In this document: positions 9,449 through 42,035 of the stretch, piece after piece
Position numbering within the stretch: position 1 is the first letter of the stretch
How the letters are laid out: the number at the start of each line of letters is the position of its first letter
Origin: Escherichia virus TH34
Sequence record: MT446407.1
Reading direction: 5' to 3' (one strand)
Length of the DNA stretch: 64,000 bases
Program-made: the position numbers and the translations under genes
The notes under the pieces: generated by a model
Databases searched by the model: none
The model's input: only the letters and a program-made list of their open reading frames with translations
What the model was told of the DNA's origin: nothing

Positions 9449-9524
9449 GCACCCTTAGCTCAATGGATAGAGCAGCGACCTTCTAAGTCGTTGGTTACAG
9501 GTTCGAGTCCTGTAGGGTGCACCA
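9449..9524 (+). tRNA. tRNA-Arg: tRNA-Arg (anticodon UCU)
   Basis: Cloverleaf by eye: acceptor GCACCCT/AGGGTGC, D-arm GCTC-AATGGATA-GAGC, anticodon loop CUUCUAA, T-arm CAGG-TTCGAGT-CCTG, encoded CCA. Confidence 0.8.
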
Positions 9525-16522: not shown

Positions 16523-16531
16523 GGTGTTATC

Positions 16532-17158
16532 GTGAGCCTGTTAAGAGATTTTCAGCATTATTATTGCGGAACATGGATTGCCCAACGTGCAGAACGAGGG
16601 ATTAATTTACCTCTTTATGTACTCAACGTGAACCAAGCAAACCGCTTTGGAGAAGATGACTTCTCTCACGAAGCAGAAATGGCCTTAACTTTTGAAGTTG
16701 AACGCTGGTCTAAGAACGCCGAAGGGCAGTTTGAACGACAGGTTGTTCAGGGCATTCCTGTGTTTGATCAAAGCCTTATTCTGGAATCTCCAGATGTGGG
16801 ATACTTACAACACGGCAACAACATGGTAAGCTGGACTCATATCAACCCTGTTCGTCAGCGAGCTAAGGGTCTGATGGGGAACAAATTACGTGGTGCACCT
16901 CCTTCAATGGGTCGTTCGATTCCGGGAGAGCTGGTGTATAATCTGTTTAATCCTGACTTCGAAGGTCTGGTTACTCGCTTCATCTACATCAACCCTGTCG
17001 ATGGTAAAGTTTATTACAAAGGGGCACTTGTAGGTCAAGTTGATCTTTCTGCTGGTTACGGCGACAATGGTCGTCAATCTTTAAATCTTCTGGAGAAGTT
17101 CAAGCATATTTCTTCAGATCTGTCATCATATAATGTAGAGTTGGTGGAAACGTTATGA
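16532..17158 (+). CDS. hypothetical protein (208 aa), amide-ligase cluster
   Basis: GTG 16532 with AAGGTG upstream. Confidence 0.5.
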   Translation: MSLLRDFQHYYCGTWIAQRAERGINLPLYVLNVNQANRFGEDDFSHEAEMALTFEVERWSKNAEGQFERQVVQGIPVFDQSLILESPDVGYLQHGNNMVSWTHINPVRQRAKGLMGNKLRGAPPSMGRSIPGELVYNLFNPDFEGLVTRFIYINPVDGKVYYKGALVGQVDLSAGYGDNGRQSLNLLEKFKHISSDLSSYNVELVETL

Positions 17159-18255
17159 CAACCGTAGCACAAGTTTTTGGATACCGTAATGCTCGTCTGG
17201 CTGAGCCGCACCCAAGCATCGCTTTTCAGTGTGGTATTGGCATCGAGCTGGAAGTTGAAGGAACCTCTGAAATTGATGCAGACCTTTGGGTTTGTACTGA
17301 AGATGGTTCACTTCGTGATGGCTGTGAGATGGTTTGTGCACGGCCTTACAACGGTGTAGAATTGCTTAGTGCTATTAACAATCTGAGTGAAGCAGTACAA
17401 GACTCTGAAGCTGAAGGGACTTGGCGCTGCTCTACTCACGTTCATATGGATATGCGTGACGCTGATAGTAACATCCTGAAGAAAGTAATTCTTGGATGGA
17501 CGTTCTATGAAAAGATGATGTTCAAATGTTCTGGATACCATCGCTATCGTAGCAACTTCTGTCCTGCCTTTGCTGTTGTTCAAGCACAGGTAATGAATGC
17601 TTCCGCAGCGTTCAACCGAGATGGTGAAGCCTTCTTCAATACTCTTGTTAATAGCTGGGACAAGTACACCTCCCTTAACCTATTACCTCTGGCTCAGTTT
17701 GGTTCTGTTGAATTTCGTATCTCAGAGCCAAAGTGGAAGAAAAGCCAACTCCTTAATCTGGTCAACCGCTTCTTAGTTCTCAAGAAACTGGCTGTTGAGT
17801 ATGCAGATTTGGATAATGAAGCATATGTTGAGAAACTGAATGAGCTACGCTTCGCTCCTATGATTCAGTATCTGCCTCTGGACTACACACCTAATGATGA
17901 TGACCTGACTGGTGGTTATCGTTTGGCTCGTGATATTCTGTTCTGTCGTGAACATTCTGTTACTCTGGTTGGTCGTGTTCGTGTACAGCAGACCGGACCT
18001 GATGGTGAAATCCTTATCAACTTGCGTGATATGGGTGACTTCTACGGTTTCTTGGGATATGTACGTGGTAATGCCAACTCTATTTATGAAGAGATCATGA
18101 CCTATTACACCCCTCAGATTGAAAACACTCGAATCGCAACGGTTCGTGAAATTCGTCACATGTTTGCTCTGATGCGTGAATCAGGTAGCAGTGATGATAA
18201 CGTCACTGGTTACATTCCAGACCATCTGGAAATGCAATTAGAACGACTGCTGTAA
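17155..18255 (+). CDS. amidoligase-like (glutamine-synthetase-fold COOH-NH2 ligase) protein, second copy
   Basis: GIGIELEVEG...EDGSLRDGCEMV...STHVHMD resembles the amidoligase family; ATGA-coupled. Confidence 0.45.
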   Translation: MTTVAQVFGYRNARLAEPHPSIAFQCGIGIELEVEGTSEIDADLWVCTEDGSLRDGCEMVCARPYNGVELLSAINNLSEAVQDSEAEGTWRCSTHVHMDMRDADSNILKKVILGWTFYEKMMFKCSGYHRYRSNFCPAFAVVQAQVMNASAAFNRDGEAFFNTLVNSWDKYTSLNLLPLAQFGSVEFRISEPKWKKSQLLNLVNRFLVLKKLAVEYADLDNEAYVEKLNELRFAPMIQYLPLDYTPNDDDLTGGYRLARDILFCREHSVTLVGRVRVQQTGPDGEILINLRDMGDFYGFLGYVRGNANSIYEEIMTYYTPQIENTRIATVREIRHMFALMRESGSSDDNVTGYIPDHLEMQLERLL

Positions 18256-18332
18256 CACAATGGGCGCTCTGATAAAGGGCGCATTTAAAGGTTAATTAGA
18301 TGAAAGGGTTTACCCTTCAGGTGGATTAGAAA

Positions 18333-20366
18333 ATTTGTGGTATCGTATTAGCTGGGGGCAACATGACCTCCACAGACTTAGACGTATTCAACCAGCTTCT
18401 GTATGCTGGAGTCTTCCGTGGTCAGCACTCAACTGGTGTGTTCGGTCAGCGTAAAGGTGATGAAAAAGTATTTTCTTATAAAGAAGCACTTCCTTCCTAT
18501 GCCTTCATGCTCCAGACAGGGTACACGAATCTTACTAAGGGGCTTACGAACTATGTAGTTCCTCCATCGTGGATTGTTGGTCATAGCCGACATGCCACAC
18601 GTGGTGCGGTCAATGCTCGAAATGCTCACCCATTCTCTCATGGTGACATTACTCTGGTTCATAATGGTACACTGTTAGATCAGGAACTGTTACCAGATCA
18701 TAAGAATTTCGAAGTTGATAGCGAAAACATCTGTCATTCAATCAACACCATCGGTGCAGCAGAGACTATCCAGAAGTTGGATGGTGCGTTCACTTTAATC
18801 TGGCATGACGCCAAAGACAATACTCTGCATATCATTCGTAACGATGAACGTCCTTTCCATCTGGCCCGTTGTGGTCTAGATTGGTTTGGTGCTTCTGAAG
18901 AAGATATGTTGATGTGGATTCTTAATCGTTCCAAGTCACACAAGAACCGTATCAATGATCACTTTGAGTGTAAAGTGGGAACTGAATACATCTTTGATTT
19001 GTCTGGCAACCGTATGACTCTGACTCAAGAGGTGGAGCACAAGCTTCCGGTTTTTACGGTAACGAGTCGCTGGGGCGGCTATTACTCGAACTCTTCTCTG
19101 TATCAGAACCAACAGACAAACAAATCAAGCAGCAGCACAAGCGACATTTACGGAAACAAAGACGACAAGCCCGGCGTGACAAGCGGAGACATTCGTCGTC
19201 GTAAAGCGATTGAAGATCAGAATAAACTGGCTGCCGATCGTGGTCTTCCGTATCGTCGTGACGGTCGTGTGGATATCATTCCTCATGAGTTCCACGCTTA
19301 TAACAACACTGACCGTGGTAAGATGGTTGGTTATATTTATGATGATGCTGCTCAAGAGTATGTTGAGGGTGATGTTCATAATGTAGCCAAGAGTGAATAC
19401 TTGAAGGCTCTCGAAAACCCAAAGGTAGTGTATCGCGGGACAGTTGCTTGTATCTCCGAAGTGGACAGTATGATTCGCCTCGTACTCACTTCAGGGCTGT
19501 TTGTTGATGCTACCGATAAGGAGCCTCAAAGCACTACCGCTGATTTTGATGATGATATCCCTTTTGATTTAGAAGACTCCTTCATCACTAAGAATGGTGT
19601 GGAAGTCACCCGTAAGTTCTGGGAATCACATTCTCATGGTGATTGTGGCGGTTGTGACAAGCATATTGAATGGAAAGATGCTAAGAAAGCTGTGTTCGCT
19701 TACCAAGCATATTGGCATCCGGCCTGTTTCGAAGCATTGTCCAAACCGTCTGAAGAAGATGAAGACATTCCTTTGGGTGTCTGTGCTGTATGTGGCAATG
19801 TTAAAACTGATTTCGAGTTTGATAACGAAATGAGTAAACTTCGTGGTGAAGATATTTGTTATGTCTGTGCCAAAGAGATCAAAGACAAAGTGACTAACAC
19901 TACATTGTCTGAAGGTTACATTTGGACTAAAGCAGTTGACACAACCAACCCACGTCGCCCTGAAGTAGCAGTTCGTGTTGATCAGCGTATGCTTAGCCGG
20001 ATGATTGTAATGGTCAGCTCAGCTAAACGTTCTGGTGACATTGAATTGTCTGATGTTCCAAATTCTTATTTGGAAAAACGTGGTGGTGATACCTATGCCA
20101 TCTCTGTTTATGGTCCAAAGAATGCCCCAAAGGAGGTGCCCGCTGAGAAAGCGGAAACATTTCCAGAAAAGCAAACAACTCTCCGAAAAACAGTTGTCAG
20201 TTACGACGGACAACGAACAGCTGAGTTCACAAAAGCCCTCTGGACTTCAATTGGGTTTTGTGCGGTCTGTTATAAACAAATTCCGTGGCGTGATGCAGAA
20301 ATTTGCTCACTGAACAAAGAAAACAGGGTGATCTGTAATTCAGATTACTGTAAAGGTAAACATTAA
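18333..20366 (+). CDS. class-II (Ntn-type) glutamine amidotransferase domain fused to Cys-rich zinc-ribbon-like C-terminal region; probable AUU start
   Basis: VGHSRHATRG..NAHPF..LVHNGTLLD matches GlmS/PurF-type GATase motifs; CGIV nucleophile lies 9 codons upstream of first ATG (18363), right after ATT 18333 and behind AGGTGGA; C-terminus has 5+ CxxC pairs. Confidence 0.5.
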   Translation: MCGIVLAGGNMTSTDLDVFNQLLYAGVFRGQHSTGVFGQRKGDEKVFSYKEALPSYAFMLQTGYTNLTKGLTNYVVPPSWIVGHSRHATRGAVNARNAHPFSHGDITLVHNGTLLDQELLPDHKNFEVDSENICHSINTIGAAETIQKLDGAFTLIWHDAKDNTLHIIRNDERPFHLARCGLDWFGASEEDMLMWILNRSKSHKNRINDHFECKVGTEYIFDLSGNRMTLTQEVEHKLPVFTVTSRWGGYYSNSSLYQNQQTNKSSSSTSDIYGNKDDKPGVTSGDIRRRKAIEDQNKLAADRGLPYRRDGRVDIIPHEFHAYNNTDRGKMVGYIYDDAAQEYVEGDVHNVAKSEYLKALENPKVVYRGTVACISEVDSMIRLVLTSGLFVDATDKEPQSTTADFDDDIPFDLEDSFITKNGVEVTRKFWESHSHGDCGGCDKHIEWKDAKKAVFAYQAYWHPACFEALSKPSEEDEDIPLGVCAVCGNVKTDFEFDNEMSKLRGEDICYVCAKEIKDKVTNTTLSEGYIWTKAVDTTNPRRPEVAVRVDQRMLSRMIVMVSSAKRSGDIELSDVPNSYLEKRGGDTYAISVYGPKNAPKEVPAEKAETFPEKQTTLRKTVVSYDGQRTAEFTKALWTSIGFCAVCYKQIPWRDAEICSLNKENRVICNSDYCKGKH

Positions 20367-20377
20367 GAGGTGAAGTT

Positions 20378-20611
20378 ATGGAAGTTCGTAAATTGATGTT
20401 GGATAACGTTGTAACCACTCGACGTATCCCAATGACAAGCACAGGATGTGATAACCTTCGAGCTATTCAGAAATGGATGCAAGAAGGTATTGGGGGACTG
20501 GTTAACTCTCCAGTTGAAATCCCTTTCCCAACCGTTATCAATAACGTGTTGGCTGACTATGTGAAATTGAAGGGGATTAAAGTTGAGCCTCATGTCAAGC
20601 AAGGGAGCTAA
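20378..20611 (+). CDS. hypothetical protein (77 aa)
   Basis: ATG 20378 with AAGAGG upstream. Confidence 0.45.
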   Translation: MEVRKLMLDNVVTTRRIPMTSTGCDNLRAIQKWMQEGIGGLVNSPVEIPFPTVINNVLADYVKLKGIKVEPHVKQGS

Positions 20612-20813
20612 GCCTCACCTGACAATGCTGGAGTATCAACAACTCCGACTTCAACAACTGGTAACGGAGCAGCGAAAGCTGTATCCGTTTGCTTTTAACC
20701 TAATTGATTCACCAAGCGATGACCAAGAAGACGAGATGTTCTCCAAGTATTGGGAAATCGAAGTTAAAATTCAATCCTGTCGTAACGAAATTCTTAAACT
20801 AAAAGGTATCTAA
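20592..20813 (+). CDS. hypothetical protein (start uncertain)
   Basis: Track ORF starts TTG 20583; first ATG at 20592. Confidence 0.35.
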   Translation: MSSKGAKPHLTMLEYQQLRLQQLVTEQRKLYPFAFNLIDSPSDDQEDEMFSKYWEIEVKIQSCRNEILKLKGI

Positions 20814-20815
20814 AA

Positions 20816-22063
20816 ATGACTACTCGTATCCGTGTTCTTCCGTATGGCCCTTCTGATTCTGTTAACGCTCTGGTAACTGCCATTAGTGATACTATCCGTG
20901 ATGAACGTATCAACGCTAACGTAATGGGTCTTCTTTCTGAGAACAGTCGCTGGCGTTCTCGTGAGGGTGATGTGGTTGTGAACTACGGGAACCGCCGCTA
21001 TCCTGAATCCTTCTTTGGTTCTGCAACTGTTCTTAACCGTACCGCAGCCTTACACATGGCAGCGAACAAACGTCGTGCTTTCAGCGTGATGGACCAAGCA
21101 GGTGTTAAAACTGTTGAGTATACAGATGTTCAAGAGATTGCTCAGGAGTGGTCAAACTCTGGCAACATTGTGTATGAACGTCATGAACTGACTGGTCACT
21201 CTGGTTCGGGTATTATTGTTGTTGAGCCTCGTGATTCAGTTGGTCAAGCTGAACTGTACACCAAAGGTATTCAAGGCCCACGTCGTGAATGGCGTGTCCA
21301 TGTGTTCAAAGGTGCAATCACCTATGTTCAGAAGAAAATTCGTCGTAATGGTTATCGTGAAGACCCTAACTATCGTGAAGATGTTCGTAACCATCACACT
21401 GGTTGGGTTTACTCAAGCTCTTTTACGGATGTTCCGAACGATGCATCTCTGATCAACGCAGTGAAGGCCGTTGAATCGATGGGTCTGGATTTTGGTGCAG
21501 TTGATATCATTACTAAAGGTCGAGAAGCATGGGTACTGGAAGTTAATACAGCACCGGGCCTGACTGGTACAACTCTGGATACCTACCGTCACAACATCCT
21601 TGAGTTTGTTAAAGCTCAAAACCCTCTCTATACTCCTCAGTATAAAGTGGTTTACCAGACTCCTGTTGAAGCTCCAATTGAAGATGGAGATGGTGAATTG
21701 GTTGCTGACAGTGAAAGTGCTGATGATGAAAACTTCGCACTGGAAGGCCAAGTCGCACAGCCGGTTGATTCAGTGGATGTAGTTCCTGAAGAAATGCAAC
21801 TGGAAGGTCAGATGAATACTCAGACAATCCGTAATGCACCTACTGGTTATGTGTTGTCTCGTGGTTACTGGATTGCAGATATTCGTCATGTTCATAACAA
21901 CCTGCAACCTAATGCAATGTCTGCCAATGTCATTCTGTTCTGCGATGGTCGTAACTTCTACCGCAGTGGCTGGAACGTTCCGGTTCATCCGCAACAAGTC
22001 CACAACCCTCGTAAGTTAGAGTCTGTAACTGTTGAAGGTAGTGAAGTGGCAGTAACTCTGTAA
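20816..22063 (+). CDS. ATP-grasp fold ligase
   Basis: LDFGAVDIITKGREAWVLEVNTAPGL is a typical ATP-grasp C-terminal motif. Confidence 0.55.
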   Translation: MTTRIRVLPYGPSDSVNALVTAISDTIRDERINANVMGLLSENSRWRSREGDVVVNYGNRRYPESFFGSATVLNRTAALHMAANKRRAFSVMDQAGVKTVEYTDVQEIAQEWSNSGNIVYERHELTGHSGSGIIVVEPRDSVGQAELYTKGIQGPRREWRVHVFKGAITYVQKKIRRNGYREDPNYREDVRNHHTGWVYSSSFTDVPNDASLINAVKAVESMGLDFGAVDIITKGREAWVLEVNTAPGLTGTTLDTYRHNILEFVKAQNPLYTPQYKVVYQTPVEAPIEDGDGELVADSESADDENFALEGQVAQPVDSVDVVPEEMQLEGQMNTQTIRNAPTGYVLSRGYWIADIRHVHNNLQPNAMSANVILFCDGRNFYRSGWNVPVHPQQVHNPRKLESVTVEGSEVAVTL

Positions 22064-22083
22064 TTAAACAAAAGGAATTTGTA

Positions 22084-22326
22084 ATGTTGTCTATCGAAGA
22101 TTTGATCAGTCGTGGAATGACCGAACAAAAAGAACCTCTGATTGTTGGTTCTCGTAAAGCTATTAACCAACTCTGTGAAGAGTTTGGAATCACAAACAAG
22201 AGAATGATTGGTAATCAGTTCTCTGCAATTGTCACCTTCCTTAAACGAGGTGATAAATATTCAATGGAATGTGTTGAGCGTATCATCGCAATTGCACAAG
22301 AAGATAAGGGAGTAACAACTCTGTGA
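22084..22326 (+). CDS. hypothetical protein (80 aa)
   Basis: ATG 22084 with AAAAGGA upstream. Confidence 0.45.
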   Translation: MLSIEDLISRGMTEQKEPLIVGSRKAINQLCEEFGITNKRMIGNQFSAIVTFLKRGDKYSMECVERIIAIAQEDKGVTTL

Positions 22327-22508
22327 ATAAATACACAATCATGTTTCGTACAGTAAACTCAGAAGGTAATATTCAATCTCTAGATATTCAAGCAGATCGC
22401 TTTGAATCACTTGGAACAAGTGTTAACTTCTTCCGAGGAGTAGAGTTGGTAGGTACATTCCAATCTGACGTGTTGACTGGTGTGATCAAACACTTCGAAG
22501 TAGAATAA
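22323..22508 (+). CDS. hypothetical protein (start GTG 22323 or ATG 22341)
   Basis: GTGA overlap with upstream stop. Confidence 0.35.
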   Translation: MNKYTIMFRTVNSEGNIQSLDIQADRFESLGTSVNFFRGVELVGTFQSDVLTGVIKHFEVE

Positions 22509-22573
22509 TTTGCTTTAGCCTCTTCGGAAGAGGGGGCTAGTTCAAATTTAACTGAAACACAAAAGGTAATATA

Positions 22574-23005
22574 ATGTCTGATAAAGTATTAGTAGCAACT
22601 TACGGCAGCTTGAGAAAAGGTCAACACAACCACGCTATCAATGCTCGTGCCGGTGGTGTGTCTATTGGTGAGGGTTGGACAGTGAACAACTGTAACCTGT
22701 ATCAGTATTGCACAGCATACTTCCCAAGTGTGTCTCTGGAGCACGACAGCAATGGCAAGCCTGTTCGTGTGGAAGTATTTGAAACAACTCAAGCTGGTTT
22801 GGAAGGTCCGTATGACGGTCTGGAAGGTTATCGTGGTAAAGACAATCCATACACTTTCTACAATCGTACACTAATTCCAGTAGTGCTGGATAGTGGTGAA
22901 ACTGTGGAAGCATGGATTTATCATATCGACGAAGAACAAGATGTTCTGGTTGAATCTGGCGACTGGACAGCGTATCTGGCAGGTGATCAGGATGACAGTA
23001 ACTGA
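22574..23005 (+). CDS. AIG2/gamma-glutamyl cyclotransferase-like protein
   Basis: N-terminal VATYGSLRKGQHNH matches the YGSL motif of the GGCT/AIG2 fold. Confidence 0.45.
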   Translation: MSDKVLVATYGSLRKGQHNHAINARAGGVSIGEGWTVNNCNLYQYCTAYFPSVSLEHDSNGKPVRVEVFETTQAGLEGPYDGLEGYRGKDNPYTFYNRTLIPVVLDSGETVEAWIYHIDEEQDVLVESGDWTAYLAGDQDDSN

Positions 23006-23234: not shown

Positions 23235-25025
23235 ATGTCAAAGATCATTTTAGGGGATACAGGTTGTAAAGAATGTATCTCTCATGGTCGTGATAAGACC
23301 CACAATCACATGATTCTCTTCCGAAACGAAGAGTCCGGTGAAGAGTGGGGCAGTTGTAATCGTTGTGGTAGTTATGAAGTTTTCGAAAAGGGAACAACTC
23401 CTACACCGAATGAAAAGAAAGAACTATCCCCTGAAGAACTCCGAGAGATCTTAGACGATTGCTTAGAGCTGCCTCAGGGTGAGCTTACTCGTCGTTTGAT
23501 TCCTAAAGCTGTCTCTGAACGGTATGAATGCCGTATTGGTTTGAGTCAGACAGATGGGCAAACTCCTGATAGTTACTTCTTCCCTCGTGAACGTGATGGA
23601 AACATTGTTGGTTATGAAGTTAAGCTTCTAGACAGCAAGAAATTCTATTACATCGGCAGTGTTAAAGAAGCTGACCTATTCGGTATGGCTCAAGCACAAC
23701 GCGGGGACGTGTACAACAAGAAGCTCTTCATCTTTGAAGACCCACTCTCTTGTATGTCTGGCTTCCATGTGCTCACTGCGTTCACGAACGCTACAAACAT
23801 CAAACCTGCGTGTGTATCTCTACCGTTTGGTGCAGGTTCAATCTCTTCCGTTCTCTCACGTAACCGTGACTTCTTGAATGGTTTTGAGGAGATTGTGCTC
23901 TGCATGGACAATGATGATGCAGGTGAGATTGCATTAACTAAAGGTCGTGCATTATATCCCCATGTTAAATTTGCTCGTATTCCGAAAGGAACCTTCACTT
24001 ACAATGGTCAAGAGAAGGAAATCAAAGATGCAAATGACATGTTACTCGCTGGTCGAGGTCAAGAGCTATTCAACAATCTGAAATATTCAGCGAAGCGGGA
24101 ATCACCTGCTGGTGCTGTTACTGTCTTTGATTGTTTAGAAGACGCTCTGAAGAAAGCGGAATGGGGTATTCCTTATCCGTGGAAAACTCTGAATGAAATG
24201 ACCTTCGGCATTCGTTGGGGAGAGATGGTTGCAATCGGTGGTGGTGTTGGTTCAGGTAAAACCTTAATCGCACACGAACTGGTAGCATGGCTTTGCCTTG
24301 AGCATGGTTTTAATGGTGGTGGCTTCTTCTTGGAAGAGAAGGTAGGCATGTCTGTTAAAAACATTGCAGGTAAATCAGCATCTGTACCTTTCCACCGACC
24401 TGATGTTGAATATGAGGAATCTCAGCTACGTGACGAAGCACTCCGTTACGCTGACAAGTTCTTCTTGTATGACAACTTCGGACAGAATGAGTGGGATGAT
24501 ATTAAGCAGTGTATTCGCTTCTGGGTAGTTGAGAATCAGTGTAAGTTTATCATTCTTGATAACATCACTGCATTAGTTTCTCACCTAACTCCATCTGAGG
24601 TGAATACAGAAATCAGTAAGATTGCTTCAGAGCTTGCTGGTATGTGTAAGGAATTAGACTTCACTGCTTTTGTATTATCTCACTTGAATGCTCCGGCAGG
24701 TGGTGCTCCTCACGAAGAAGGTGGGCAGGTGAAAGAAGTTCAGTTCACTGGTTCACGTTCACTGATGCGTTGGTGTCAGTGCATCATCGGTTTTGAGCGA
24801 GATAAGCAAGCGGATGGGTTAGGCAAGAACTTGTCAATCATACGACTTCTCAAGGAGCGTAACTACGGTCAGACAGGTGTTTGCTACACCAAGTATATCA
24901 ATGAAACAGGTCGACTTGTAGAACGAGAAGATCACGAAGTTGATGAAGCTAATCCGTTTGTCTTGACCAATGGTGAGGATGCAGCTTCTCTGCTCACACA
25001 AGACGGGGAGGCACGACCTTGGTAA
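23235..25025 (+). CDS. primase-helicase (zinc-ribbon/primase N-terminus, DnaB-type helicase C-terminus)
   Basis: Strong RBS AAGGAGG; N-terminal CxxC..CxxC; Walker [10 protein letters not shown] and Walker B IILDNI. Confidence 0.7.
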
Positions 25026-25567
25026 AGAAAATATTCGCCTTCGATATCGAGGGTGATAATCTCTATGAGGGCATCCAAAATGTCTGGTGTATCTGGATAT
25101 TTGATGTTCTTACAGGTGAACGGTGGGGGTATCGCCCTCACCAAATTGAAGAAGCTCTTCACAAACTGAAGGAAGCTGATATAGTTGTAGGACACAACAT
25201 CATAGATTTTGACCTACCAGCTCTCTTTAAATTCTACTCTCATGTAATACCTTTCCACTTCAATGTCTTTGATACACTTTGCCTGAGTCGTTATCTCAAG
25301 CCTGACCGTATTGGAGATAATCCAGAATATCCCAAAGGCGACCCTAGACATGGCCCTCGTGGTCATGGCCTCAAGCAATGGGGCGAATTTCTGGGTGAAC
25401 TGAAGGGTGATTATGGTGAGCAGGAAGAAGCATGGGATGCATTCACTGAAGACATGTTCACATATTGTGAGCAAGACGTTAACTTAACAGTTAAGGTTTA
25501 CATGTGTCTTTGCCAAATGGCAGGATTTGATTATAAGAATCCCCCATCTCTCAACTGGAAAATGTAG
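25019..25567 (+). CDS. stand-alone DnaQ-like 3'-5' exonuclease (DEDDy)
   Basis: Exo I FDIEG, Exo [11 protein letters not shown], Exo III YCEQD; TTG start overlapping helicase stop, GGGGAGG 7 nt upstream. Confidence 0.55.
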
Positions 25568-25569
25568 AA

Positions 25570-27006
25570 ATGATTAAGATTCCATTGTCTGAATTAAACC
25601 TTCAAGAAGGAGAAGCCCTCAGTGTAGGGCTTGACCTGATTCGTAATTTGATCAGAGATAACGTAGTCCCTGATGGTATCTATCCTGTTATTGCGGGTGG
25701 TGCTATCCGTGATACGTTCTTCCAAAATCGAACTCCGAATGACGTTGATATCTTCCTAGTTCAAGGAGGATTTCGTTGGAACACTCGTCAGGAAAACAGC
25801 CCTGCTAACGTGGGTAATGCTGCACTGTTCCTTGACAACTTCTTGTCTTGGACAGAGAGTAAAGGGCTTCAAACTACATCTCGCCTAGTTCAGCCTGTTA
25901 GTGGGACAAATTACGCTGAAGCACTTTTCACTTTCCAAGAGATTTTGGAAGTGGAGATTGACGAAGTGAAGATTCAGATGATGATTAACCTCCCTCTGGA
26001 TATGGATACTCTGAGAGGTCGCTTCCCTATGATTTGTCAAGGGTTTATGACTCTCGATGATATGTATGTGTCGAACGAAGGTATGTTTGCAATGGCATAT
26101 ACTAATGATATCCCTGTGGTGACAAGTCGTGACATGAAGTATGTCCACAAAAAGTGGCCTGAAGCAACAGTTGCAGTTTACAGCAGTTCTACTGAGTATA
26201 TGCACCTTGCAATGGGAGCTTTTGGTGAACCAGAAGTTCATCTGATCAGTGATTTAGTTGGGCCTATGGCTGGTGTAAACTTGTATCAGAATCAACGTCG
26301 CCACTACACCTTGAAGATGATGGAAACTGTATTAAATATTCCTCAGGAAGCGGGTCGTAACTATCTGGATGAAGAGGTTAACCTACAGACAGATTGGTCT
26401 AGTGAATTAACCACTATTGGTGTTGAAGCAATTACGCAGCCTTGGACTCCGGGAACTGACAGACGTGACTCTTGGCAACAGACAAGATTCGCAGCACCTG
26501 CTACAGAGGCACCTCGTGATACTTTCACTGGTAGTTTTGGTAGTGCCCGTTCTTCTGGAATGGGTACTCGTACATGGCACGTCACTCATGATACAGGTGG
26601 AGTAACTGTTCGACCTGCTTCTTCTCCATCTATGGGTGATTTGCAGCGTTCCCGTCGTTCATGGGAAACAGTTAGCTCTGTTGTTCAGGGTCTACGTTCT
26701 AGTGATATAGAACGTGTAGAAGTTGGTGATTTGCCAACCCCTACAGAAGATCGGGTAGCAGCTATAGCGGCTCGTGAAGCTGCTCGTACTGGCTTTGCAT
26801 CTTTAGCTAACGACGCTCGACCTGTTGGTCGTCGTAATGGTCTGGCTCATTCTAACACTGCACTTGGTGCAGAACTCCGAGCAACAGCTCGTGAATTAGT
26901 TGGTGAACTTGATAGTAACTTAGCAGGTGTTACGCTGACTCGTGAAACAGCTCGTAACATGATTAACAATTTGACATCATCTGTACAAGGAAACAGAAAC
27001 TCATGA
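25570..27006 (+). CDS. CCA-adding-enzyme/poly(A)-polymerase-family nucleotidyltransferase with low-complexity C-terminal half
   Basis: VIAGGAIRD...NDVDIF matches the GGxVRD...DxD head-domain motif; C-terminal ~200 aa Ser/Thr/Arg/Gly-rich. Confidence 0.5.
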   Translation: MIKIPLSELNLQEGEALSVGLDLIRNLIRDNVVPDGIYPVIAGGAIRDTFFQNRTPNDVDIFLVQGGFRWNTRQENSPANVGNAALFLDNFLSWTESKGLQTTSRLVQPVSGTNYAEALFTFQEILEVEIDEVKIQMMINLPLDMDTLRGRFPMICQGFMTLDDMYVSNEGMFAMAYTNDIPVVTSRDMKYVHKKWPEATVAVYSSSTEYMHLAMGAFGEPEVHLISDLVGPMAGVNLYQNQRRHYTLKMMETVLNIPQEAGRNYLDEEVNLQTDWSSELTTIGVEAITQPWTPGTDRRDSWQQTRFAAPATEAPRDTFTGSFGSARSSGMGTRTWHVTHDTGGVTVRPASSPSMGDLQRSRRSWETVSSVVQGLRSSDIERVEVGDLPTPTEDRVAAIAAREAARTGFASLANDARPVGRRNGLAHSNTALGAELRATARELVGELDSNLAGVTLTRETARNMINNLTSSVQGNRNS

Positions 27007-27536
27007 GTCTTTTAGGTTCTCAAGAACTACACAACGTTATTGATAATGGCTTTTTAGATGCGGAGCATAAATATGTTAACGCTGCTAGCGTGGATATCCG
27101 TATTGGTGATACTATCCTTGTTGAAGAACAGGCTGACGGCATTGTTGACATTGATGCTAAAGAAAATCTCAAGTGGAAAGAAGTGAAAATCCCTGAAGAT
27201 GGTATTGTCATCACTCCGGGACAATTCTTCTTAGCTCACTCAATGGAAGAGTTTAACCTTCCAGATAACATCTCAAGTCTGTTTGTACTTCGCTCCTCAA
27301 TGGCTCGTTGTGGTTTGAACCACTTACATGCTGGTTGGGCTGATGCAGGGTTTAACAGCAGTAAGCTGACCTTTGAATTCCATAACGTTACCCACAACCA
27401 CAGCTTACGAGTTCGTGCTGGGATGCGTGTTGGTCAGATGGTTATGTTTGAACACTCTCACGCTGGTGATGATTCCTATGCAGTGAAGGGTCGTTACAAT
27501 GGCAGCAATGGGGTAGTTGCATCTAAAGGTGTATAA
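27003..27536 (+). CDS. dCTP deaminase / dUTPase-superfamily protein
   Basis: ASVDIRIGD and GWADAGF motifs typical of Dcd/Dut fold. Confidence 0.55.
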   Translation: MSLLGSQELHNVIDNGFLDAEHKYVNAASVDIRIGDTILVEEQADGIVDIDAKENLKWKEVKIPEDGIVITPGQFFLAHSMEEFNLPDNISSLFVLRSSMARCGLNHLHAGWADAGFNSSKLTFEFHNVTHNHSLRVRAGMRVGQMVMFEHSHAGDDSYAVKGRYNGSNGVVASKGV

Positions 27537-27541
27537 CCAAG

Positions 27542-27733
27542 ATGAAAGAAGAAAAAGCTACTTACTTAGCTATTGGTTTTGTAGTTGGGGCATTTGCTAT
27601 GGGAGTATTTATATCTAACGTTGGTCCAGATTCTAGCGTTAAGATTGAGACGAGAAGAGCCGCTTGTGAAATAAATCTCCCTCGTAATCAGGTCTGTGTA
27701 ATGCAGTTTGTCCCTAAATCGGTTGACAGATAA
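27542..27733 (+). CDS. small membrane-anchored protein (63 aa)
   Basis: N-terminal hydrophobic helix. Confidence 0.4.
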   Translation: MKEEKATYLAIGFVVGAFAMGVFISNVGPDSSVKIETRRAACEINLPRNQVCVMQFVPKSVDR

Positions 27734-27945
27734 TGGAGTTTGGAACAATGAAAAGACGTTGGGTAGTTCGTATTCACTGGAGCAGTGGTACAGAGTCAAT
27801 GGGTATTAGGAATACCCGTCAAGAAGCTCGCGCTCATAAGAAGTTCTTGTTAAGTTGTGAAAGCACAATTAATAAGATCACTATCCACAAAGCTCAAGAC
27901 TTTAAATCAGGTCGTTTCTATATCAGCGGAAAGGTACATTACTAA
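27733..27945 (+). CDS. small protein, TRQEAR paralog family (1 of 3)
   Basis: NTRQEARAHKK...KVHY; alternative ATG 27748. Confidence 0.45.
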   Translation: MEFGTMKRRWVVRIHWSSGTESMGIRNTRQEARAHKKFLLSCESTINKITIHKAQDFKSGRFYISGKVHY

Positions 27946-28160
27946 TGGATAAATTATGGGCAGTTCGTACTAAATGGGCTAACAAAGCTCTTGGTGGTGA
28001 TTGTATTCAATTATTCAACACAAGACAAGAGGCTCGTCTTGCTAAGAAAACTATAAAAGCTACAAAAGCTTTAGGAATCGCTGAAAAGGTGGAGATTCAT
28101 CGTTGGATTGAAAATATCCAGAACAGTGCTGGATTCATATCCAGCAAGGTTTATTACTAG
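27945..28160 (+). CDS. small protein, TRQEAR paralog family (2 of 3)
   Basis: NTRQEARLAKK...KVYY. Confidence 0.45.
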   Translation: MDKLWAVRTKWANKALGGDCIQLFNTRQEARLAKKTIKATKALGIAEKVEIHRWIENIQNSAGFISSKVYY

Positions 28161-29119: not shown

Positions 29120-29182
29120 TCAAACCTCCGCCCTGTCTCTTTGTTTAAGAGGTGGGGCGAACTTCTTTATAAGGATGTGAAT

Positions 29183-29816: not shown

Positions 29817-30032
29817 ATGGAAAAGAAACCTTGGACTACTTTTTGGGTAGTTAAGTGGTTTAATTTTGATAGCACAATCCCTAGCTTCTCCTCATACACA
29901 ACACGGAGAGAGGCTCGCCGCTTTAAGCGAGCTTTAAAAATTGCTAACACTGGCGCTTCTAAGATTACAATTCAGAAAGGGATTGAAACAGAAAGTGGAA
30001 GCAACATGATTTATAAAAAGATTCATTATTAA
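29817..30032 (+). CDS. small protein, TRQEAR paralog family (3 of 3)
   Basis: TTRREARRFKR...KIHY; ATG 29817 with AAAGGTG upstream. Confidence 0.45.
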   Translation: MEKKPWTTFWVVKWFNFDSTIPSFSSYTTRREARRFKRALKIANTGASKITIQKGIETESGSNMIYKKIHY

Positions 30033-30039
30033 GGAAGTG

Positions 30040-30510
30040 ATGTTATACGGTAATTTGGAATACAACCCTGAAACTGGAGACTTCTTTAGGAATAGCAAAA
30101 AGCTAGGAGGAAAGAGGAGCAAGTATGCAACCCTTCGGTTTCAAGGTAAAGTAAGAAAAGCACATGTGGTTGCTTGGTTTATTTATTATGGGGAGTGGCC
30201 TACTTCTCAAATAGACCATGAAGATGGTAATAAGAGGAACAACTCAATCTCTAATCTTCGATTAGTAGACACCTCTACTAACTGTCACAATCAGTTTGGT
30301 GCAAGATCTTCAAACATACAATCAGGTTTTCAAGGGGTTAAAGTTGTTAAGTACAAATCAGGCACTATTCGATATAGAGCAGTTATTTGTATTAATGGCA
30401 AAGATATACACCTAGGGATGTATGGAACTCCTGAAGAAGCACATCAAGTCTATATAGAACGGAAAAAGGAACTTTTACGTGAACGAACAACTAACAGCAA
30501 CATTGATTGA
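30040..30510 (+). CDS. HNH homing endonuclease
   Basis: HEDGNKRNNSISNLRL HNH motif; ATG 30040 with AAGGAAG upstream. Confidence 0.55.
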   Translation: MLYGNLEYNPETGDFFRNSKKLGGKRSKYATLRFQGKVRKAHVVAWFIYYGEWPTSQIDHEDGNKRNNSISNLRLVDTSTNCHNQFGARSSNIQSGFQGVKVVKYKSGTIRYRAVICINGKDIHLGMYGTPEEAHQVYIERKKELLRERTTNSNID

Positions 30511-31129
30511 ACATATGGGAAGCGATAAATCCGTTGTGAATGCGGCAAGGGTTTCTTTTGGTGTTGTACGAGAAGGTGATTTAAATGAACGTGATGAAAG
30601 ACTCATTAAATTCTTGGCAAGGGAAAAACACTGTACACCATTTCGTCATCCAACAATTAGCTTCCGATGCAAAGCGCCAATCGCAATTGCACGACAACTT
30701 GGAAAACATCAAGTGGGGTTCTCGTGGAACGAAATGTCCCGGCGGTATAAAGATGGAGCAGTTGAACTCTTCATCCCTAAAGAGATTTTTGAAAGACCTT
30801 CGGACCTCCATGCAGGTGCAGGGAATCTCCTCACCACAGGAGCACAAAACTCTGCACTAGTTCTGATTAACCGAGCATATGAAACAGCTCTTGAGTCGTA
30901 CGATGAATTGATTAAGTTCATTGCTCCAGAACAAGCTCGATTCGTATTACCTCAGGGTATGATCACTGAGTGGGTATGGACTGGTTCTCTATATGGTTGG
31001 TCAGAGTTGTGTCGTCAGCGACTGTCAGACCATGCTCAGTATGAGGTGCGTTTGTTCGCATCAACAATTGATGAAGAGCTTCGTAAAATATATCCAATCT
31101 CTTGGGATGCATTACGTGAAGCCCACTAA
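30479..31129 (+). CDS. thyX: flavin-dependent thymidylate synthase ThyX-like (variant signature)
   Basis: HCTPFRHPTISF...ARQLGKHQVGFSWNEMSRRY aligns to the ThyX core, but RHR reads KHQ; start GTG 30479 or ATG 30515. Confidence 0.55.
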   Translation: MNEQLTATLIEHMGSDKSVVNAARVSFGVVREGDLNERDERLIKFLAREKHCTPFRHPTISFRCKAPIAIARQLGKHQVGFSWNEMSRRYKDGAVELFIPKEIFERPSDLHAGAGNLLTTGAQNSALVLINRAYETALESYDELIKFIAPEQARFVLPQGMITEWVWTGSLYGWSELCRQRLSDHAQYEVRLFASTIDEELRKIYPISWDALREAH

Positions 31130-35242: not shown

Positions 35243-35258
35243 TTATAAGGAGTGGGTG

Positions 35259-37103
35259 ATGGATAACCCTGATAAGTTACCTTTCATAACGGAGATGACA
35301 GTCGCTGATATAATCTCAAAGCAGGCGAAGCATGGCGTCAACTTCCACAGAAGAAACGCTCGGTGGTTTGTTCACCTTCTCAAAGAGATTATTGTCAATA
35401 TTGATAAAGAACTGATTCCTCTCCTCCCCAAAATGCGGGTGGATGGTTCAACTTATTCGAAACCTTTTAAGAAGTCAGGTTCTTTACAGAAGTGGCCTCA
35501 GCTCTATTGTGACAGAGTTGGTCTTAAAAGGGAAGATATCGGTGGGGCGTTTACTTGCGTTGAGTATGTAGACTTCGACCCATCGAAAGATGCACGTATC
35601 AAAGAAGCCTTGATGGACGAAGGCTTTATTCCTCCAGAGTGGAACACATCCAAGAAACCTTGGAATACTTACGAAATCCGTAAAGCGATGAAGAAGTATG
35701 GCACATATGCTGCTTGGTATTCTGCTTGGATGCGGGGAAACGCTAAAGAAAAACAGACAGCTGAGATGATTGACGCTGACATTCGTCGGTTCTTGGATAA
35801 ACACTTCCGTTATCACACTGTCAATTACATGAAAGCGTACGTTAGTGGTTTAGGCTTGAATCCGAACAGGAAGAAGCCTGTAACCTTTGATGAAATTAAG
35901 AAAGCTTTAGCCATGTCAAACAAGTGGCCTACAGCTCCTACAAACCTCGAGGAGACGCTTGAAGAAGGTCTTGGGGGTGAGCTAGGGGGTGTGGGAGGTT
36001 TGCTTAAGAGACGTGTTGTAGCGGCTCACAGGCTTGGCTTGATTAATGGTCTTATAGACAAGGAACGAGAAGATGGTAAGTTGTCCGCCGAAGCTAATAG
36101 CTGCGCTACTCCGACATTTCGTTTTAAACACCGTATTGTTGTTAATATTCCTTCTCGCGGTTTGTTTGGTCACGAGTGCCGCAGTCTATTTCAGTCTGAC
36201 TGTACCTCAAGTGATAGTAATCACAATCCTATCATCATTACCAACCATATCCCTGATGGGTGTTACGTACGAAAAGGTACAAACACTATCTACGAAGTGG
36301 GAAAACCGGGCAAGAAAGACAAACCGATAGGTGCTCTGAAATATTACATACCTTCTGGTCATGAAGTATTTCTTGGTTATGATGGTTCAGGGTTAGAACT
36401 GCGTATGCTGGCTCACTACCTTATTAAAGAGTGTCGTGAGATGTTGGCAGAGGCAGAACAAGAGAATAACCCAGCTAAGAAACGAGAAGCTGAACGCGGT
36501 TTAGCATCTGCCGTATTGTACAGAGATATTCTCTTACAGGGTGATATTCACTCCCATAACCAGAAACTTGCTGGCTTGCCTACCCGTGATAATGCTAAGA
36601 CGTTTATCTACGCATTCAACTACGGAGCTGGTGATGCTAAGCTAGGTAGTATTGTTGGTGGTGGGGCTGATGAAGGTTCTATAATGAGAGCTAGATTCTT
36701 AGCAGAGAACCCTTGTATTGCAATCCTTATTGAACGTATGACAGAGAAAGCACAAAGTGGATACATCTACGGTGTTGACGGTCGTCGTATTACAATGAGA
36801 CGTGACGGTACAGGAAAGGTCATGACACACAAAGCCTTAAATACGCTCTTACAGAGCGCTGGGGCGATTGTTATGAAGTATGCAATGCTATTCCTCAATA
36901 AATGGATTGAGCGTGATGGTGTTCGTTGTGCGAAGGTTATCGACATGCATGATGAAGGTCAGTTCACTGTACATCGTGATGATGTTAACAAACTTCGCAC
37001 TCTCACTGAGGAATGTGTTCGTAAAGCGGGTGAATACCTCAAGATGGAATGCCCTCTTGCATCAGATTGTAAGATTGGACTGAATTGGCAGCATACGCAC
37101 TAA
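35259..37103 (+). CDS. family-A DNA polymerase, polymerase domain
   Basis: Motif A YDGSGLELRMLAHY, motif B RDNAKTFIYAFNYGAG, motif C MHDEGQF; ATG 35259 with AAGGAG upstream. Confidence 0.7.
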   Translation: MDNPDKLPFITEMTVADIISKQAKHGVNFHRRNARWFVHLLKEIIVNIDKELIPLLPKMRVDGSTYSKPFKKSGSLQKWPQLYCDRVGLKREDIGGAFTCVEYVDFDPSKDARIKEALMDEGFIPPEWNTSKKPWNTYEIRKAMKKYGTYAAWYSAWMRGNAKEKQTAEMIDADIRRFLDKHFRYHTVNYMKAYVSGLGLNPNRKKPVTFDEIKKALAMSNKWPTAPTNLEETLEEGLGGELGGVGGLLKRRVVAAHRLGLINGLIDKEREDGKLSAEANSCATPTFRFKHRIVVNIPSRGLFGHECRSLFQSDCTSSDSNHNPIIITNHIPDGCYVRKGTNTIYEVGKPGKKDKPIGALKYYIPSGHEVFLGYDGSGLELRMLAHYLIKECREMLAEAEQENNPAKKREAERGLASAVLYRDILLQGDIHSHNQKLAGLPTRDNAKTFIYAFNYGAGDAKLGSIVGGGADEGSIMRARFLAENPCIAILIERMTEKAQSGYIYGVDGRRITMRRDGTGKVMTHKALNTLLQSAGAIVMKYAMLFLNKWIERDGVRCAKVIDMHDEGQFTVHRDDVNKLRTLTEECVRKAGEYLKMECPLASDCKIGLNWQHTH

Positions 37104-41384: not shown

Positions 41385-42035
41385 ATGAAGAAGAAGACAA
41401 CACCCACACGCTATCGTATTCATGGCATTCCTATTAAATATTATCCAACCTTCGATGAATTCTATCGAGAGAACTGGAAAGTTGTGCATCGCTATTTTAT
41501 GTATGACATTAAAGATTATCACGAAGCAGAGGATGTTGCTCAGGAAGTATTACTGAACGCTTGGCGTTTTGTGTTTGCAAAGCAAGAAGAACTTCTGCTC
41601 GCTGATGAAAAAGATATTGAACACATGACTTATCGTGTTAAGAATATCATCTGGTCTATTCGTTCTAACCGTCAGACAGTTGGAGATCGACGTATCTACT
41701 CTATTCCAGAGGCTGATATGTTTAGACCTCCTGAGATGAACTCATGGGAAAGTCCTTTAGAGATTGCGATGGATAAGCATGACTCTACTGGAGACCCCTT
41801 CTTGGAATCTAGAATCTTTTTCTTCTTCCAAGACTTAAGTGATATTATGGATACCAAGAAAATGGCAAGCATGTTCTCTATGCTCTTCCTTGGAATACCT
41901 CACGATCACATCCAGCAAGAGCTGGGAATTTCACACGGAACTTTCTATCGCCGATATGCAGAGAATCGTGATCTGTACGAAGCTGTAGTAGAGAAGCACT
42001 TTGATAAAGAAGATCTTCAAGGGATGATTCAATAA
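41385..42035 (+). CDS. phage sigma factor (ECF/sigma70 family)
   Basis: Region-2-like [16 protein letters not shown] and region-4-like [23 protein letters not shown]. Confidence 0.55.

What the first reader, a model, noticed from the sequence alone, without database searches (positions are those of the whole stretch)
25570..27006. CCA-adding-enzyme-like nucleotidyltransferase with a long disordered tail, in a phage that also carries tRNA-Arg(UCU)
The N-terminal domain has the GGAIRD...DVD signature of the tRNA nucleotidyltransferase/poly(A) polymerase family; the C-terminal ~200 aa is Ser/Thr/Arg/Gly-rich. With its own tRNA at 9449-9524, the phage may repair or remodel tRNA 3' ends (counter-defence against tRNA-targeting nucleases) or tail RNAs. 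The gene sits between the exonuclease and dCTP deaminase genes, so a DNA-related role is also possible.
Basis: partly seen in the sequence, partly recalled or inferred. Interest (0 to 1): 0.5.

Follow-up and report, generated by a model that had tools for sequence, protein, structure and literature searches.

The report
Fast-evolving phage nucleotidyltransferase, not a CCA enzyme
This coliphage gene encodes a probably active nucleotide-transferring enzyme that keeps only the catalytic motif and head fold of tRNA CCA-adding enzymes, has lost their tRNA- and CCA-specific parts, and is by far the fastest-changing gene in an otherwise conserved DNA-replication gene block; what it acts on is unknown.

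The parts
25570..27006 (+). Complete ORF, 478 aa plus stop; PHROG 12715 'nucleotidyltransferase'
   Evidence: E=4e-155, full length; 99.9% identical to TH42; annotated 'nucleotidyltransferase' in Bas86-88, SU7, ECBP2
25570..26418 (+). Folded catalytic core, residues 1-283 (class II-like head plus helical extension)
25690..25752 (+). Motif A, I41-AGGAIRD-x9-DVDI61: hG[GS] plus [DE]h[DE]h, the two metal-binding aspartates D58 and D60
   Evidence: G43, G44, R47, D48, D58, D60 invariant in 25/25. This is the only stretch alignable to class II enzymes.
25936..25944 (+). h[DE]h pattern Q123-E124-I125; E124 is the candidate third catalytic carboxylate
   Evidence: The column is D or E in 25/25 and I125 is invariant. 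Assignment as the third carboxylate is inferred from the Pol-beta superfamily pattern (PMC7291057), not from a superposition.
25912..25914 (+). Invariant Tyr115 in a low-confidence loop (110-116)
   Evidence: 25/25 Tyr; pLDDT below 50 for 110-116. Role unknown.
26128..26160 (+). Family-specific helix motif R187-D-x-x-Y191-x-x-K-K195-x-P197. It lies where spacing from motif A would place class II motif D (EDxxR).
   Evidence: Y191 and K195 invariant; D/E188 25/25; R187 20/25. Helix 186-195. Positional equivalence to motif D is inference.
26023..26028 (+). [F/M]152-P153, in the helix where class II motif B (RRD) would be expected; no Arg pair is present
   Evidence: P153 25/25. Positions 150-151 are not conserved. 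RRD is absent from the cores of all 25 members.
26419..26604 (+). Variable, indel-rich linker (residues 284-345), predicted disordered
   Evidence: Indels in the close-homolog alignment; pLDDT 31-52; dN/dS 0.42-0.45 for residues 298-345
26614..26724 (+). Conserved tail block (residues 349-385, PASSPSMGDLQRSRRSWETV...) with a predicted helix at 362-377
   Evidence: For residues 346-390, dN/dS is 0.37-0.38 with 4-aa indels at the block's N-terminal edge.
26926..27003 (+). Highly conserved C-terminal helix and end (residues 453-478, ...RETARNMINNL.SSVQGNRNS)
   Evidence: Nearly invariant among type-1 homologs; dN/dS 0.10-0.15 for residues 451-478; helix 458-474
27003..27006 (+). ATGA stop/start overlap with the dCTP deaminase gene (possible translational coupling, inferred)
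25019..25567 (+). Upstream neighbour: stand-alone 3'-5' proofreading exonuclease of the split family A DNA polymerase
   Evidence: PF01612 E=2e-6. Syntenic in all 14 relatives examined.
27003..27536 (+). Downstream neighbour: dCTP deaminase
   Evidence: PF22769 E=1e-34. 93-94% identical across genera in which the NTase is 32-40% identical.
23235..25025 (+). Primase/helicase, start of the conserved replication block
   Evidence: DnaB_C E=2e-10; 94% identical to SU10

Best explanation
[quoted passage not shown] It has lost the class II machinery for ribose and C/A selection and for tRNA binding. Shown here: the fold, the invariant two-metal site (D58, D60, plus acidic 124), the absence of motifs B, D and E and of the body/tail domains, the fixed position between the proofreading exonuclease and the dCTP deaminase, and protein evolution much faster than the neighbours. 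Inferred: it transfers an NMP or dNMP from an (d)NTP to the 3'-OH of a non-tRNA nucleic-acid end (an RNA or DNA end produced during phage replication or host nucleic-acid turnover). It would use its own conserved pocket (Y115, Q136, [F/M]152-P153, R187-D-xx-Y191-xx-KK195). The Arg/Ser/Thr-rich disordered tail, with its conserved terminal helices, would act as a lineage-specific adaptor that binds nucleic acid or tethers the enzyme to a partner such as the replisome.
Against: No biochemical data exist for any member. The nucleic-acid acceptor is inferred only from the nearest fold relatives. The family shares nothing detectable with them beyond motif A, so the acceptor could be a protein or a small molecule. 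Replicative enzymes are usually conserved, whereas this gene is the most divergent in the block, a pattern more typical of host-interaction genes. Host-takeover genes are commonly interspersed in podophage replication modules (my own knowledge of T7), so position alone is weak evidence. I had no model coordinates, so the geometry of the proposed third carboxylate and pocket is unverified.
Confidence: 0.4

Rival explanations
1. Host-directed effector or counter-defence enzyme. The NTase nucleotidylylates a host protein, a small molecule or host RNAs (for example toxic tailing) to take over the cell or disarm or evade an immune system. The hypervariable core surface and tail would track a variable host target.
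For: It is an extreme divergence hotspot with sharp boundaries: 32-40% identity against 93-94% for flanking genes. Within a type, its dN is at least 30 times that of primase/helicase (0.033-0.058 against 0.001 or less) while its dS is comparable. The tail varies from 0 to 195 aa and is unalignable between types. A structurally analogous stand-alone NTase, fHe-Kpn01 Gp22, is toxic in E. coli (PMC7291057). The invariant Tyr115 sits in a flexible loop.
Against: Anti-defence genes are usually sporadically distributed. This gene is present and syntenic in every genome of the lineage examined, like a core function. Overall dN/dS is well below 1. There is no PADLOC or anti-defence family hit. NTase types simply follow genera, so the divergence may be old rather than arms-race driven.
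Confidence: 0.25
2. DNA-modification or anti-restriction enzyme. Alone or together with the dCTP deaminase, the NTase produces a covalent modification or unusual nucleotide in phage DNA that explains the broad resistance of Gordonclarkvirinae to restriction-modification systems.
For: [quoted passage not shown] The class II ribose-2'-OH-sensing motif B is lost, so dNTP use is not excluded. The gene overlaps dcd.
Against: The specific proposal of dU-DNA is unlikely, because the phage encodes ThyX (PF02511 E=4e-43) and an ORF annotated as dNMP kinase in Bas88. With dcd these form an ordinary dTTP supply route. I know of no phage DNA hypermodification pathway that uses a Pol-beta NTase (my own knowledge). 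A modification enzyme acting on invariant DNA chemistry would not be expected to diverge to 30% identity while dcd stays at 93%.
Confidence: 0.15
3. One reading: a genuine tRNA 3'-end (CCA) adding or repair enzyme, or a poly(A) polymerase, serving the phage tRNA-Arg or countering tRNA-targeting nucleases.
For: The nearest sequence and fold relatives are class II CCA-adding enzymes and PAP I. [quoted passage not shown] The phage carries one tRNA. Jumbo phages use genuine CCA enzymes for tRNA repair (PMC7824862).
Against: Motifs B, D and E and the body/tail domains are absent from the whole family. PF01743 is below threshold. The phage tRNA encodes its own CCA. No RNA ligase, PNK or RtcB is annotated. 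The tRNA gene is 16 kb away in a different gene block. Family members with no tail (about 280 aa) have nothing that could hold a tRNA body.
Confidence: 0.08
4. Non-catalytic pseudoenzyme: a structural or regulatory replisome accessory that merely retains an NTase fold.
For: All class II substrate-selecting motifs are lost. The sequence evolves fast. The long adaptor-like tail is consistent with a scaffolding role.
Against: The complete Pol-beta catalytic signature (GG, DxD, third acidic residue) and several other residues are invariant across about 25% identity. That is not expected for a dead enzyme.
Confidence: 0.05

Closest known systems
Class II tRNA nucleotidyltransferases and bacterial poly(A) polymerase I (Pfam PF01743 head domain; e.g. 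B. stearothermophilus CCA 1MIV, T. maritima 3H37, human TRNT1 1OU5, E. coli PcnB 3AQL)
   Different: No motif B (RRD), no motifs D/E (EDxxR..R..RF), and no body/tail RNA-binding domains. Sequence similarity is limited to 24 columns. It has its own invariant residues (Y115, Q136, P153, Y191, K195) and a variable disordered tail in place of tRNA-binding domains. It is restricted to one phage lineage and sits in a replication module.
Stand-alone 'poly A polymerase head domain' NTases of T7-like/phiKMV-like podophages (PHROG 1614; e.g. Pseudomonas phage LKD16 ORF16, Klebsiella phage fHe-Kpn01 Gp22)
   Same: Small Pol-beta/class II-like head fold (BFVD Foldseek E 1e-9 to 1e-4, TM 0.48-0.60 relative to target length). 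Motif-A-only similarity (phrog_1614 E=5e-6 over residues 32-71; HHalign to LKD16 ORF16 E=3.7e-4). LKD16 ORF16 has no Pfam hit and no RRD. It is encoded inside the replication module, right after the helicase. Function unknown; Gp22 is toxic in E. coli.
   Different: Those proteins are 140-215 aa with no extra helical region and no tail. No homology is detectable beyond motif A, so common descent below superfamily level is unproven. They sit in a different gene slot (helicase-ligase rather than exonuclease-dcd).
PHROG 12715 / Gordonclarkvirinae 'nucleotidyltransferase' (phiEco32 gp73, SU10 gp074, Bas86-94 orthologs)
   Same: This gene is a member: full-length match at E=4e-155, the same slot in every genome, and the public annotation already says nucleotidyltransferase.
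   Different: The window carries the Suseptimavirus-type allele, only 32-36% identical to the Kuravirus alleles and 40% to the Nieuwekanaalvirus allele, with a non-homologous tail.

Membership tests
Class II CCA-adding enzyme / poly(A) polymerase (PF01743 family) | Motif A: GGxVRD followed about 9-10 residues later by DxD (metal-binding carboxylates) | tested here: met
   GGAIRD at 43-48 and DVD at 58-60. Invariant in 25/25 relatives. Aligned to class II by hmmsearch (E=0.003) and hhalign (E=5.6e-6).
Class II CCA-adding enzyme / poly(A) polymerase (PF01743 family) | Motif B: RRD (recognises the ribose 2'-OH and triphosphate of the incoming NTP) | tested here: not met
   The regex finds RRD in 5/5 class II references but in only 1/25 family members, and that single match is in the disordered linker (residue 298). 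The relaxed pattern [RK][RK]D[h]T is found in 0/25. Motif B is not aligned by hhalign.
Class II CCA-adding enzyme / poly(A) polymerase (PF01743 family) | Motifs D/E: EDxxR..R..RF (the amino-acid template for C and A, plus the primer-end helix) | tested here: not met
   5/5 references against 0/25 family members. At the expected spacing the family has R-D-xx-Y-xx-KK instead.
Class II CCA-adding enzyme / poly(A) polymerase (PF01743 family) | C-terminal body and tail domains that bind the tRNA/RNA | tested here: not met
   No Pfam domain at E up to 10. Residues 284-478 have low confidence and disordered-type composition. Many family members end at about 280 aa.
Class II CCA-adding enzyme / poly(A) polymerase (PF01743 family) | Scores above the Pfam PF01743 gathering threshold | tested here: not met
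   The query has 0 hits. 17/25 relatives give only weak hits, the best at E=2.5e-4.
Class II CCA-adding enzyme / poly(A) polymerase (PF01743 family) | Head-domain fold | tested here: met
Class II CCA-adding enzyme / poly(A) polymerase (PF01743 family) | CCA or poly(A) addition to RNA 3' ends | not testable with these tools
   Needs an in-vitro assay.
[quoted passage not shown] | Sequence patterns hG[GS], [DE]h[DE]h and h[DE]h on the core sheet | tested here: met
   I41-A-G43-G44, D58-V-D60-I61 and Q123-E124-I125. The key residues are kept in 25/25. The patterns are as quoted in PMC7291057.
[quoted passage not shown] | The third carboxylate is positioned at the metal site in 3D | tested here: inconclusive
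E96 is also always acidic.
PHROG 12715 (Gordonclarkvirinae NTase) | Full-length profile match | tested here: met
   E=4.3e-155, residues 1-471 on profile positions 1-456 of 457.
Stand-alone phage PAP-head NTases (PHROG 1614 type) | Homology across the whole domain | tested here: inconclusive
   Only residues 32-71 match phrog_1614 (E=5e-6). hhalign to LKD16 ORF16 covers 42 columns at prob 36%. The fold similarity is good.

The most novel reading that the evidence does not exclude
The NTase is the unexplained determinant behind the broad restriction/defence resistance of Gordonclarkvirinae, or another arms-race effector. On this reading, a class II-derived enzyme has been re-tooled to nucleotidylylate phage DNA ends, a host immune or replication protein, or itself (on the invariant loop Tyr115, as a primer or adaptor). 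Genus-specific alleles and tails would be shaped by conflict with the host. The same logic would then extend to the widespread uncharacterised motif-A-only NTases in T7-like/phiKMV-like replication modules.
Probability: 0.15. Interest if true: 0.8.

Novelty: new variant of a known kind. Interest (0 to 1): 0.45.

Why it matters
These phages are common therapeutic and environmental coliphages whose molecular biology is poorly studied. They are reported to resist restriction-modification systems with no known mechanism (PMC11990801). This gene is a universal, strictly syntenic and apparently active enzyme of the lineage, yet it has shed everything that makes its nearest relatives tRNA enzymes, and it evolves far faster than its replication neighbours. 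Finding its substrate would either reveal a new replication-associated nucleotide-tailing activity or identify a new class of host-takeover or counter-defence enzyme. It would also probably shed light on the many orphan 'poly(A) polymerase head domain' proteins in T7-like phages, one of which is toxic to E. coli. On the practical side, the current database label 'class II CCA-adding enzyme domain' invites a wrong functional inference and should be read as fold and motif A only.

Tried and rejected
1. Direct family scans of the protein (Pfam, NCBIfam, PADLOC, and PDB by phmmer) gave nothing.
2. The word-indexed homolog search returned only relatives at 84% identity or more. AlphaFold2 on that shallow alignment failed (pLDDT 33). 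It was rescued with distant homologs from the exhaustive HMMER search.
3. hhalign against single sequences of E. coli Cca and PcnB aligned only motif A at low probability. A 5-sequence class II reference alignment built from PDB alignments raised the significance but still covered motif A only.
4. The afdb50 fold library was unavailable.
A subgroup alignment worked for metagenomes. The genome collection was not rescanned.
6. dU-DNA idea: rejected as the simplest reading because ThyX is present.
7. The idea that the tail might be a mis-framed or overlapping gene: rejected. Tail dN/dS is 0.30 overall and 0.10-0.15 at the C-terminus, and PHROG 12715 covers the full length.
8. E101, which HMMER aligned to class II E79, was considered as the third carboxylate. 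It was rejected because it is Q, P, T or S in 9/25 members.
9. The promoter/terminator scan found no signals above the shuffled expectation that separate the gene from its neighbours.
10. Literature searches found no functional study of this protein.
Full report
OBSERVATION. It is tightly packed. The upstream 3'-5' exonuclease gene stops at 25567, two bases before the ATG, and the TGA stop overlaps the ATG of the dCTP deaminase gene (ATGA, 27003-27006). The window is a phiEco32-like C3 podophage of E. coli. The ORF is 99.9% identical in DNA to Escherichia virus TH42 and 91.6% to SU7, which is classified Gordonclarkvirinae; Suseptimavirus. The GGAIRD...DVD signature is at residues 43-48 and 58-60. 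The last 208 residues are rich in T, A, R, S and G. tRNA-Arg(UCU) is at 9449-9524.

WHAT THE PROTEIN IS. Pfam, NCBIfam, PADLOC and a phmmer search of PDB sequences give no hit for the protein itself. PHROGs has a full-length family, phrog_12715 'nucleotidyltransferase' (E=4e-155), and a motif-only hit to phrog_1614 (residues 32-71, E=5e-6). The word-indexed search of 5.8 billion proteins found only relatives at 84% identity or more. An exhaustive HMMER scan of 1.84 billion cluster representatives found just 27 clusters. Aligning 25 of them (21-30% identity to the query) shows a shared core of about 280 residues. The invariant residues are G43, G44, R47, D48, D58, D60, F62, Y115, I125, Q136, P153, Y191 and K195. 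Columns 96 and 124 are always acidic. The three Pol-beta superfamily patterns quoted in PMC7291057 are therefore intact in 25/25 members: hG[GS] as I41-x-G-G, [DE]h[DE]h as D58-h-D60-I61, and h[DE]h as h-[D/E]124-I125.

MEMBERSHIP TEST FOR CLASS II ENZYMES. I built a reference alignment of five class II enzymes: Bst CCA, the Aquifex A-adding enzyme, Planococcus CCA, E. coli Cca and E. coli PcnB. Profile-profile comparison with the phage family aligns only 24 columns, which are motif A (prob 86%, E=5.6e-6). The family profile against PDB sequences gives E=0.003 over motif A and the following 45 residues. 17/25 members hit PF01743 only below threshold. Explicit pattern tests were then run. RRD (motif B) is in 5/5 references and 1/25 family members, and that one match is in the window protein's disordered linker. 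EDxxR (motif D) is in 5/5 against 1/25, at an unrelated position. EDxxR..R..RF (motifs D and E) is in 5/5 against 0/25. No body or tail RNA-binding domain is detectable, and many family members end at about 280 aa. By established knowledge of class II enzymes (Li et al. 2002 and later work from the Tomita and Moerl laboratories, from my own knowledge), motif B senses the ribose 2'-OH and motif D is the protein template for C and A. Their absence means CCA or A specificity and NTP-over-dNTP selection cannot be assumed. At the spacings where motifs B and D would lie, the family has its own conserved elements: L148-x3-[F/M]152-P153 and R187-[D/E]-x-x-Y191-x-x-K-K195-x-P. This positional equivalence is my inference from spacing and predicted secondary structure. 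I had no coordinates to superpose.

CONTEXT. Pfam confirms the neighbours: primase/helicase (23235-25025), 3'-5' exonuclease (25019-25567), dCTP deaminase (27003-27536), a Dps/ferritin-like protein, ThyX (30479-31129, E=4e-43) and family A DNA polymerase (35256-37103). Upstream lies an amidoligase / GATase / ATP-grasp / GGCT cluster. The order GGCT - primase/helicase - exo - NTase - dcd is conserved in all seven distant viral and metagenomic loci recovered (76-90 kb phage contigs plus one 23 kb contig). It is also conserved in every annotated phage checked: Bas88, SU7, SU10, phiEco32, EP335, O18-011, myPSH1131 and XT18. tblastn of the core against 50,697 phage records finds it only in 97 Escherichia/Shigella records, and every one examined is Gordonclarkvirinae. 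No promoter- or terminator-like signals above expectation separate it from its neighbours. The SU10 ortholog (CDS74, 50.9 kDa) was detected by mass spectrometry and listed among early gene products (PMC4281155).

AGAINST THE tRNA IDEA. The phage tRNA-Arg ends ...GGGTGC-A-CCA at 9524, so its CCA is genome-encoded. The tRNA gene lies 16 kb away in another block. The fully annotated relative Bas88 has no RNA ligase, polynucleotide kinase or RtcB. In jumbo phages, by contrast, CCA-adding enzymes are described as one part of an RNA-repair repertoire that also includes RNA ligases (PMC7824862). Together with the missing motifs and domains, this makes a CCA-adding or tRNA-repair role unlikely (about 8%).

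UNEXPECTED FINDING: A DIVERGENCE HOTSPOT. Between this phage and SU10, primase/helicase is 94% identical, dcd 93%, exo 80%, and Dps-like and ThyX 81%. The NTase is 32% identical over 256 residues, and its tail cannot be aligned. At the DNA level, identity is 80-90% through primase/helicase and 64-80% in exo. It is near-random (about 30-50%) across 25570-27006 and back to 85-89% within 100 nt of the dcd start. Pairwise matrices for seven phages show three deep allele types that follow genera: Suseptimavirus-type (this window), Kuravirus and Nieuwekanaalvirus. They are 32-40% identical to each other, while dcd stays at 93-94%. Even within Kuravirus the NTase is 78-94% identical against 98-100% for dcd. 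Within the window's own type, NTase dN is 0.033-0.058 against 0.001 or less for primase/helicase, with comparable dS. Its dN/dS is 0.16-0.20 (core 0.09, tail 0.30), against 0.00-0.10 for the neighbours. So the protein is constrained and its catalytic residues are invariant, yet it evolves far faster than the replication genes around it. I found no mention of this in the papers searched.

THE TAIL. Tail length ranges from 0 to 195 aa across the family. Where it exceeds about 20 aa, the tail is 59-73% S/T/G/R/A/P/Q/N. In the window's type it consists of an indel-rich linker (residues 284-345; dN/dS 0.42-0.45 measured over 298-345) followed by conserved blocks. These are 349-385 and a nearly invariant C-terminus at 453-478 (dN/dS 0.10-0.15 over 451-478), which coincide with predicted helices. 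The exhaustive search gave no tail-only homologs. I read it as a lineage-specific adaptor with disordered-type composition, binding either nucleic acid or a partner protein. This is inference.

A WIDER CLASS. In BFVD, the best matches after the Kuravirus ortholog are small (137-215 aa) 'poly A polymerase head domain' or 'nucleotidyltransferase' proteins of many T7-like/phiKMV-like podophages, with TM 0.48-0.60 relative to target length. One of them, LKD16 ORF16 (199 aa), has motif A (LVGGAARD...DID), no RRD and no Pfam hit. It sits between the helicase and the DNA ligase. A similar protein, Gp22 of Klebsiella phage fHe-Kpn01, is toxic when expressed in E. coli by an unknown mechanism (PMC7291057). 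Motif-A-only, class II-like NTases embedded in podophage replication modules therefore seem to be a recurrent and uncharacterised theme.

MECHANISM AND RIVALS. What is shown: an apparently active Pol-beta/class II-derived NTase without class II specificity determinants, fixed in the replication block and fast-evolving. My best guess (0.40) is template-independent transfer of an NMP or dNMP to a non-tRNA nucleic-acid 3' end connected with replication or nucleic-acid turnover, with the tail acting as adaptor. The rivals are as follows.
- A host-directed or counter-defence nucleotidylylating effector (0.25). Hypervariability and the toxicity of an analog favour it. The gene's core-gene distribution disfavours it.
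[quoted passage not shown] The specific dU-DNA version is unlikely given ThyX.
- A true CCA or poly(A) enzyme (0.08).
- A pseudoenzyme (0.05). The invariant catalytic residues contradict it.

NOVELTY AND VERDICT. The gene and its 'nucleotidyltransferase / class II CCA-adding enzyme domain' label are already in GenBank and in the 2014 SU10 paper. Three things appear to be undescribed in the papers searched: the family lacks all class II determinants except motif A; it is confined to about 27 clusters in one phage lineage; and it is the divergence hotspot of an otherwise conserved replication module. I rate it a new variant of a known kind, with interest 0.45. It is not a surprise at the fold level. 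It is a well-defined, experimentally tractable orphan enzyme in phages with unexplained restriction resistance, because the Bas86-88 phages plate on E. coli K-12.

Noticed in passing
window 27733-27945, 27945-28160, 29817-30032 (+): Three paralogous ORFs of about 70 aa share ...[T/S]R[Q/R]EAR..KK... and end in K[V/I][H/Y]Y. The first two are 32% identical (E=3e-8). No function is known. The stretch 27580-27990 is also a DNA-divergence hotspot relative to SU10.
   Followed up: partly
window 15671-23005 (+): A cluster of a COOH-NH2 ligase (PF14395), an amidoligase (PF12224), a class II glutamine amidotransferase, a RimK-like ATP-grasp and a gamma-glutamyl cyclotransferase lies just upstream of the replication block. 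This is the phiEco32-type peptide/amide-ligation gene set. It is only 59-71% identical to SU10. Its product and target are unknown, and it could be relevant to the unexplained restriction resistance.
   Followed up: partly
window 9449-9524 (+): The tRNA-Arg(UCU) gene ends with a genome-encoded CCA (...GGGTGC-A-CCA), so maturation needs no CCA addition.
   Followed up: yes
window 30479-31129 and 27003-27536 (+): ThyX (PF02511, E=4e-43) together with the dCTP deaminase (and an ORF at 42035-42631 annotated as dNMP kinase in Bas88) forms an ordinary dTTP-supply route. This argues against the published suggestion of dU-containing DNA.
   Followed up: partly
L011 (Escherichia phage O18-011) 1912-2406 and 4548-5102: This Kuravirus carries an HNH homing endonuclease between primase/helicase and exo. 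Its dCTP deaminase allele has been replaced (56-59% identical to all others, which are 93-100% alike). Mosaic replacement in this block is therefore not limited to the NTase.
   Followed up: no
L018 (Pseudomonas phage LKD16) 9703-10302: ORF16 (199 aa) is a motif-A-only, class II-like NTase with no Pfam hit. It overlaps the end of the helicase gene and precedes the DNA ligase. Similar orphan proteins occur in many Autographiviridae (BFVD hits), and one (fHe-Kpn01 Gp22) is toxic in E. coli.
   Followed up: partly
window 25019-25567 (exonuclease gene): The exonuclease is noticeably more diverged between genera (80% aa, 64-80% DNA) than primase/helicase or dcd (93-94% aa). Identity is lower on the side adjoining the NTase. 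This could be hitch-hiking or co-evolution with the NTase allele.
   Followed up: no
window 29129-29159 (+): A strong terminator-like hairpin (13-bp stem, 7 G-C pairs, T-rich tail) lies right after the Dps/ferritin-like gene. It probably marks the end of the transcription unit that contains the NTase.
   Followed up: no
protein P0048: A 283-aa metagenomic protein matches query residues 154-261 with its residues 1-109 (E=2.6e-6). It aligns from the middle of the core onwards, so it may be a truncated gene call, a split gene or a domain-shuffled relative.
   Followed up: no
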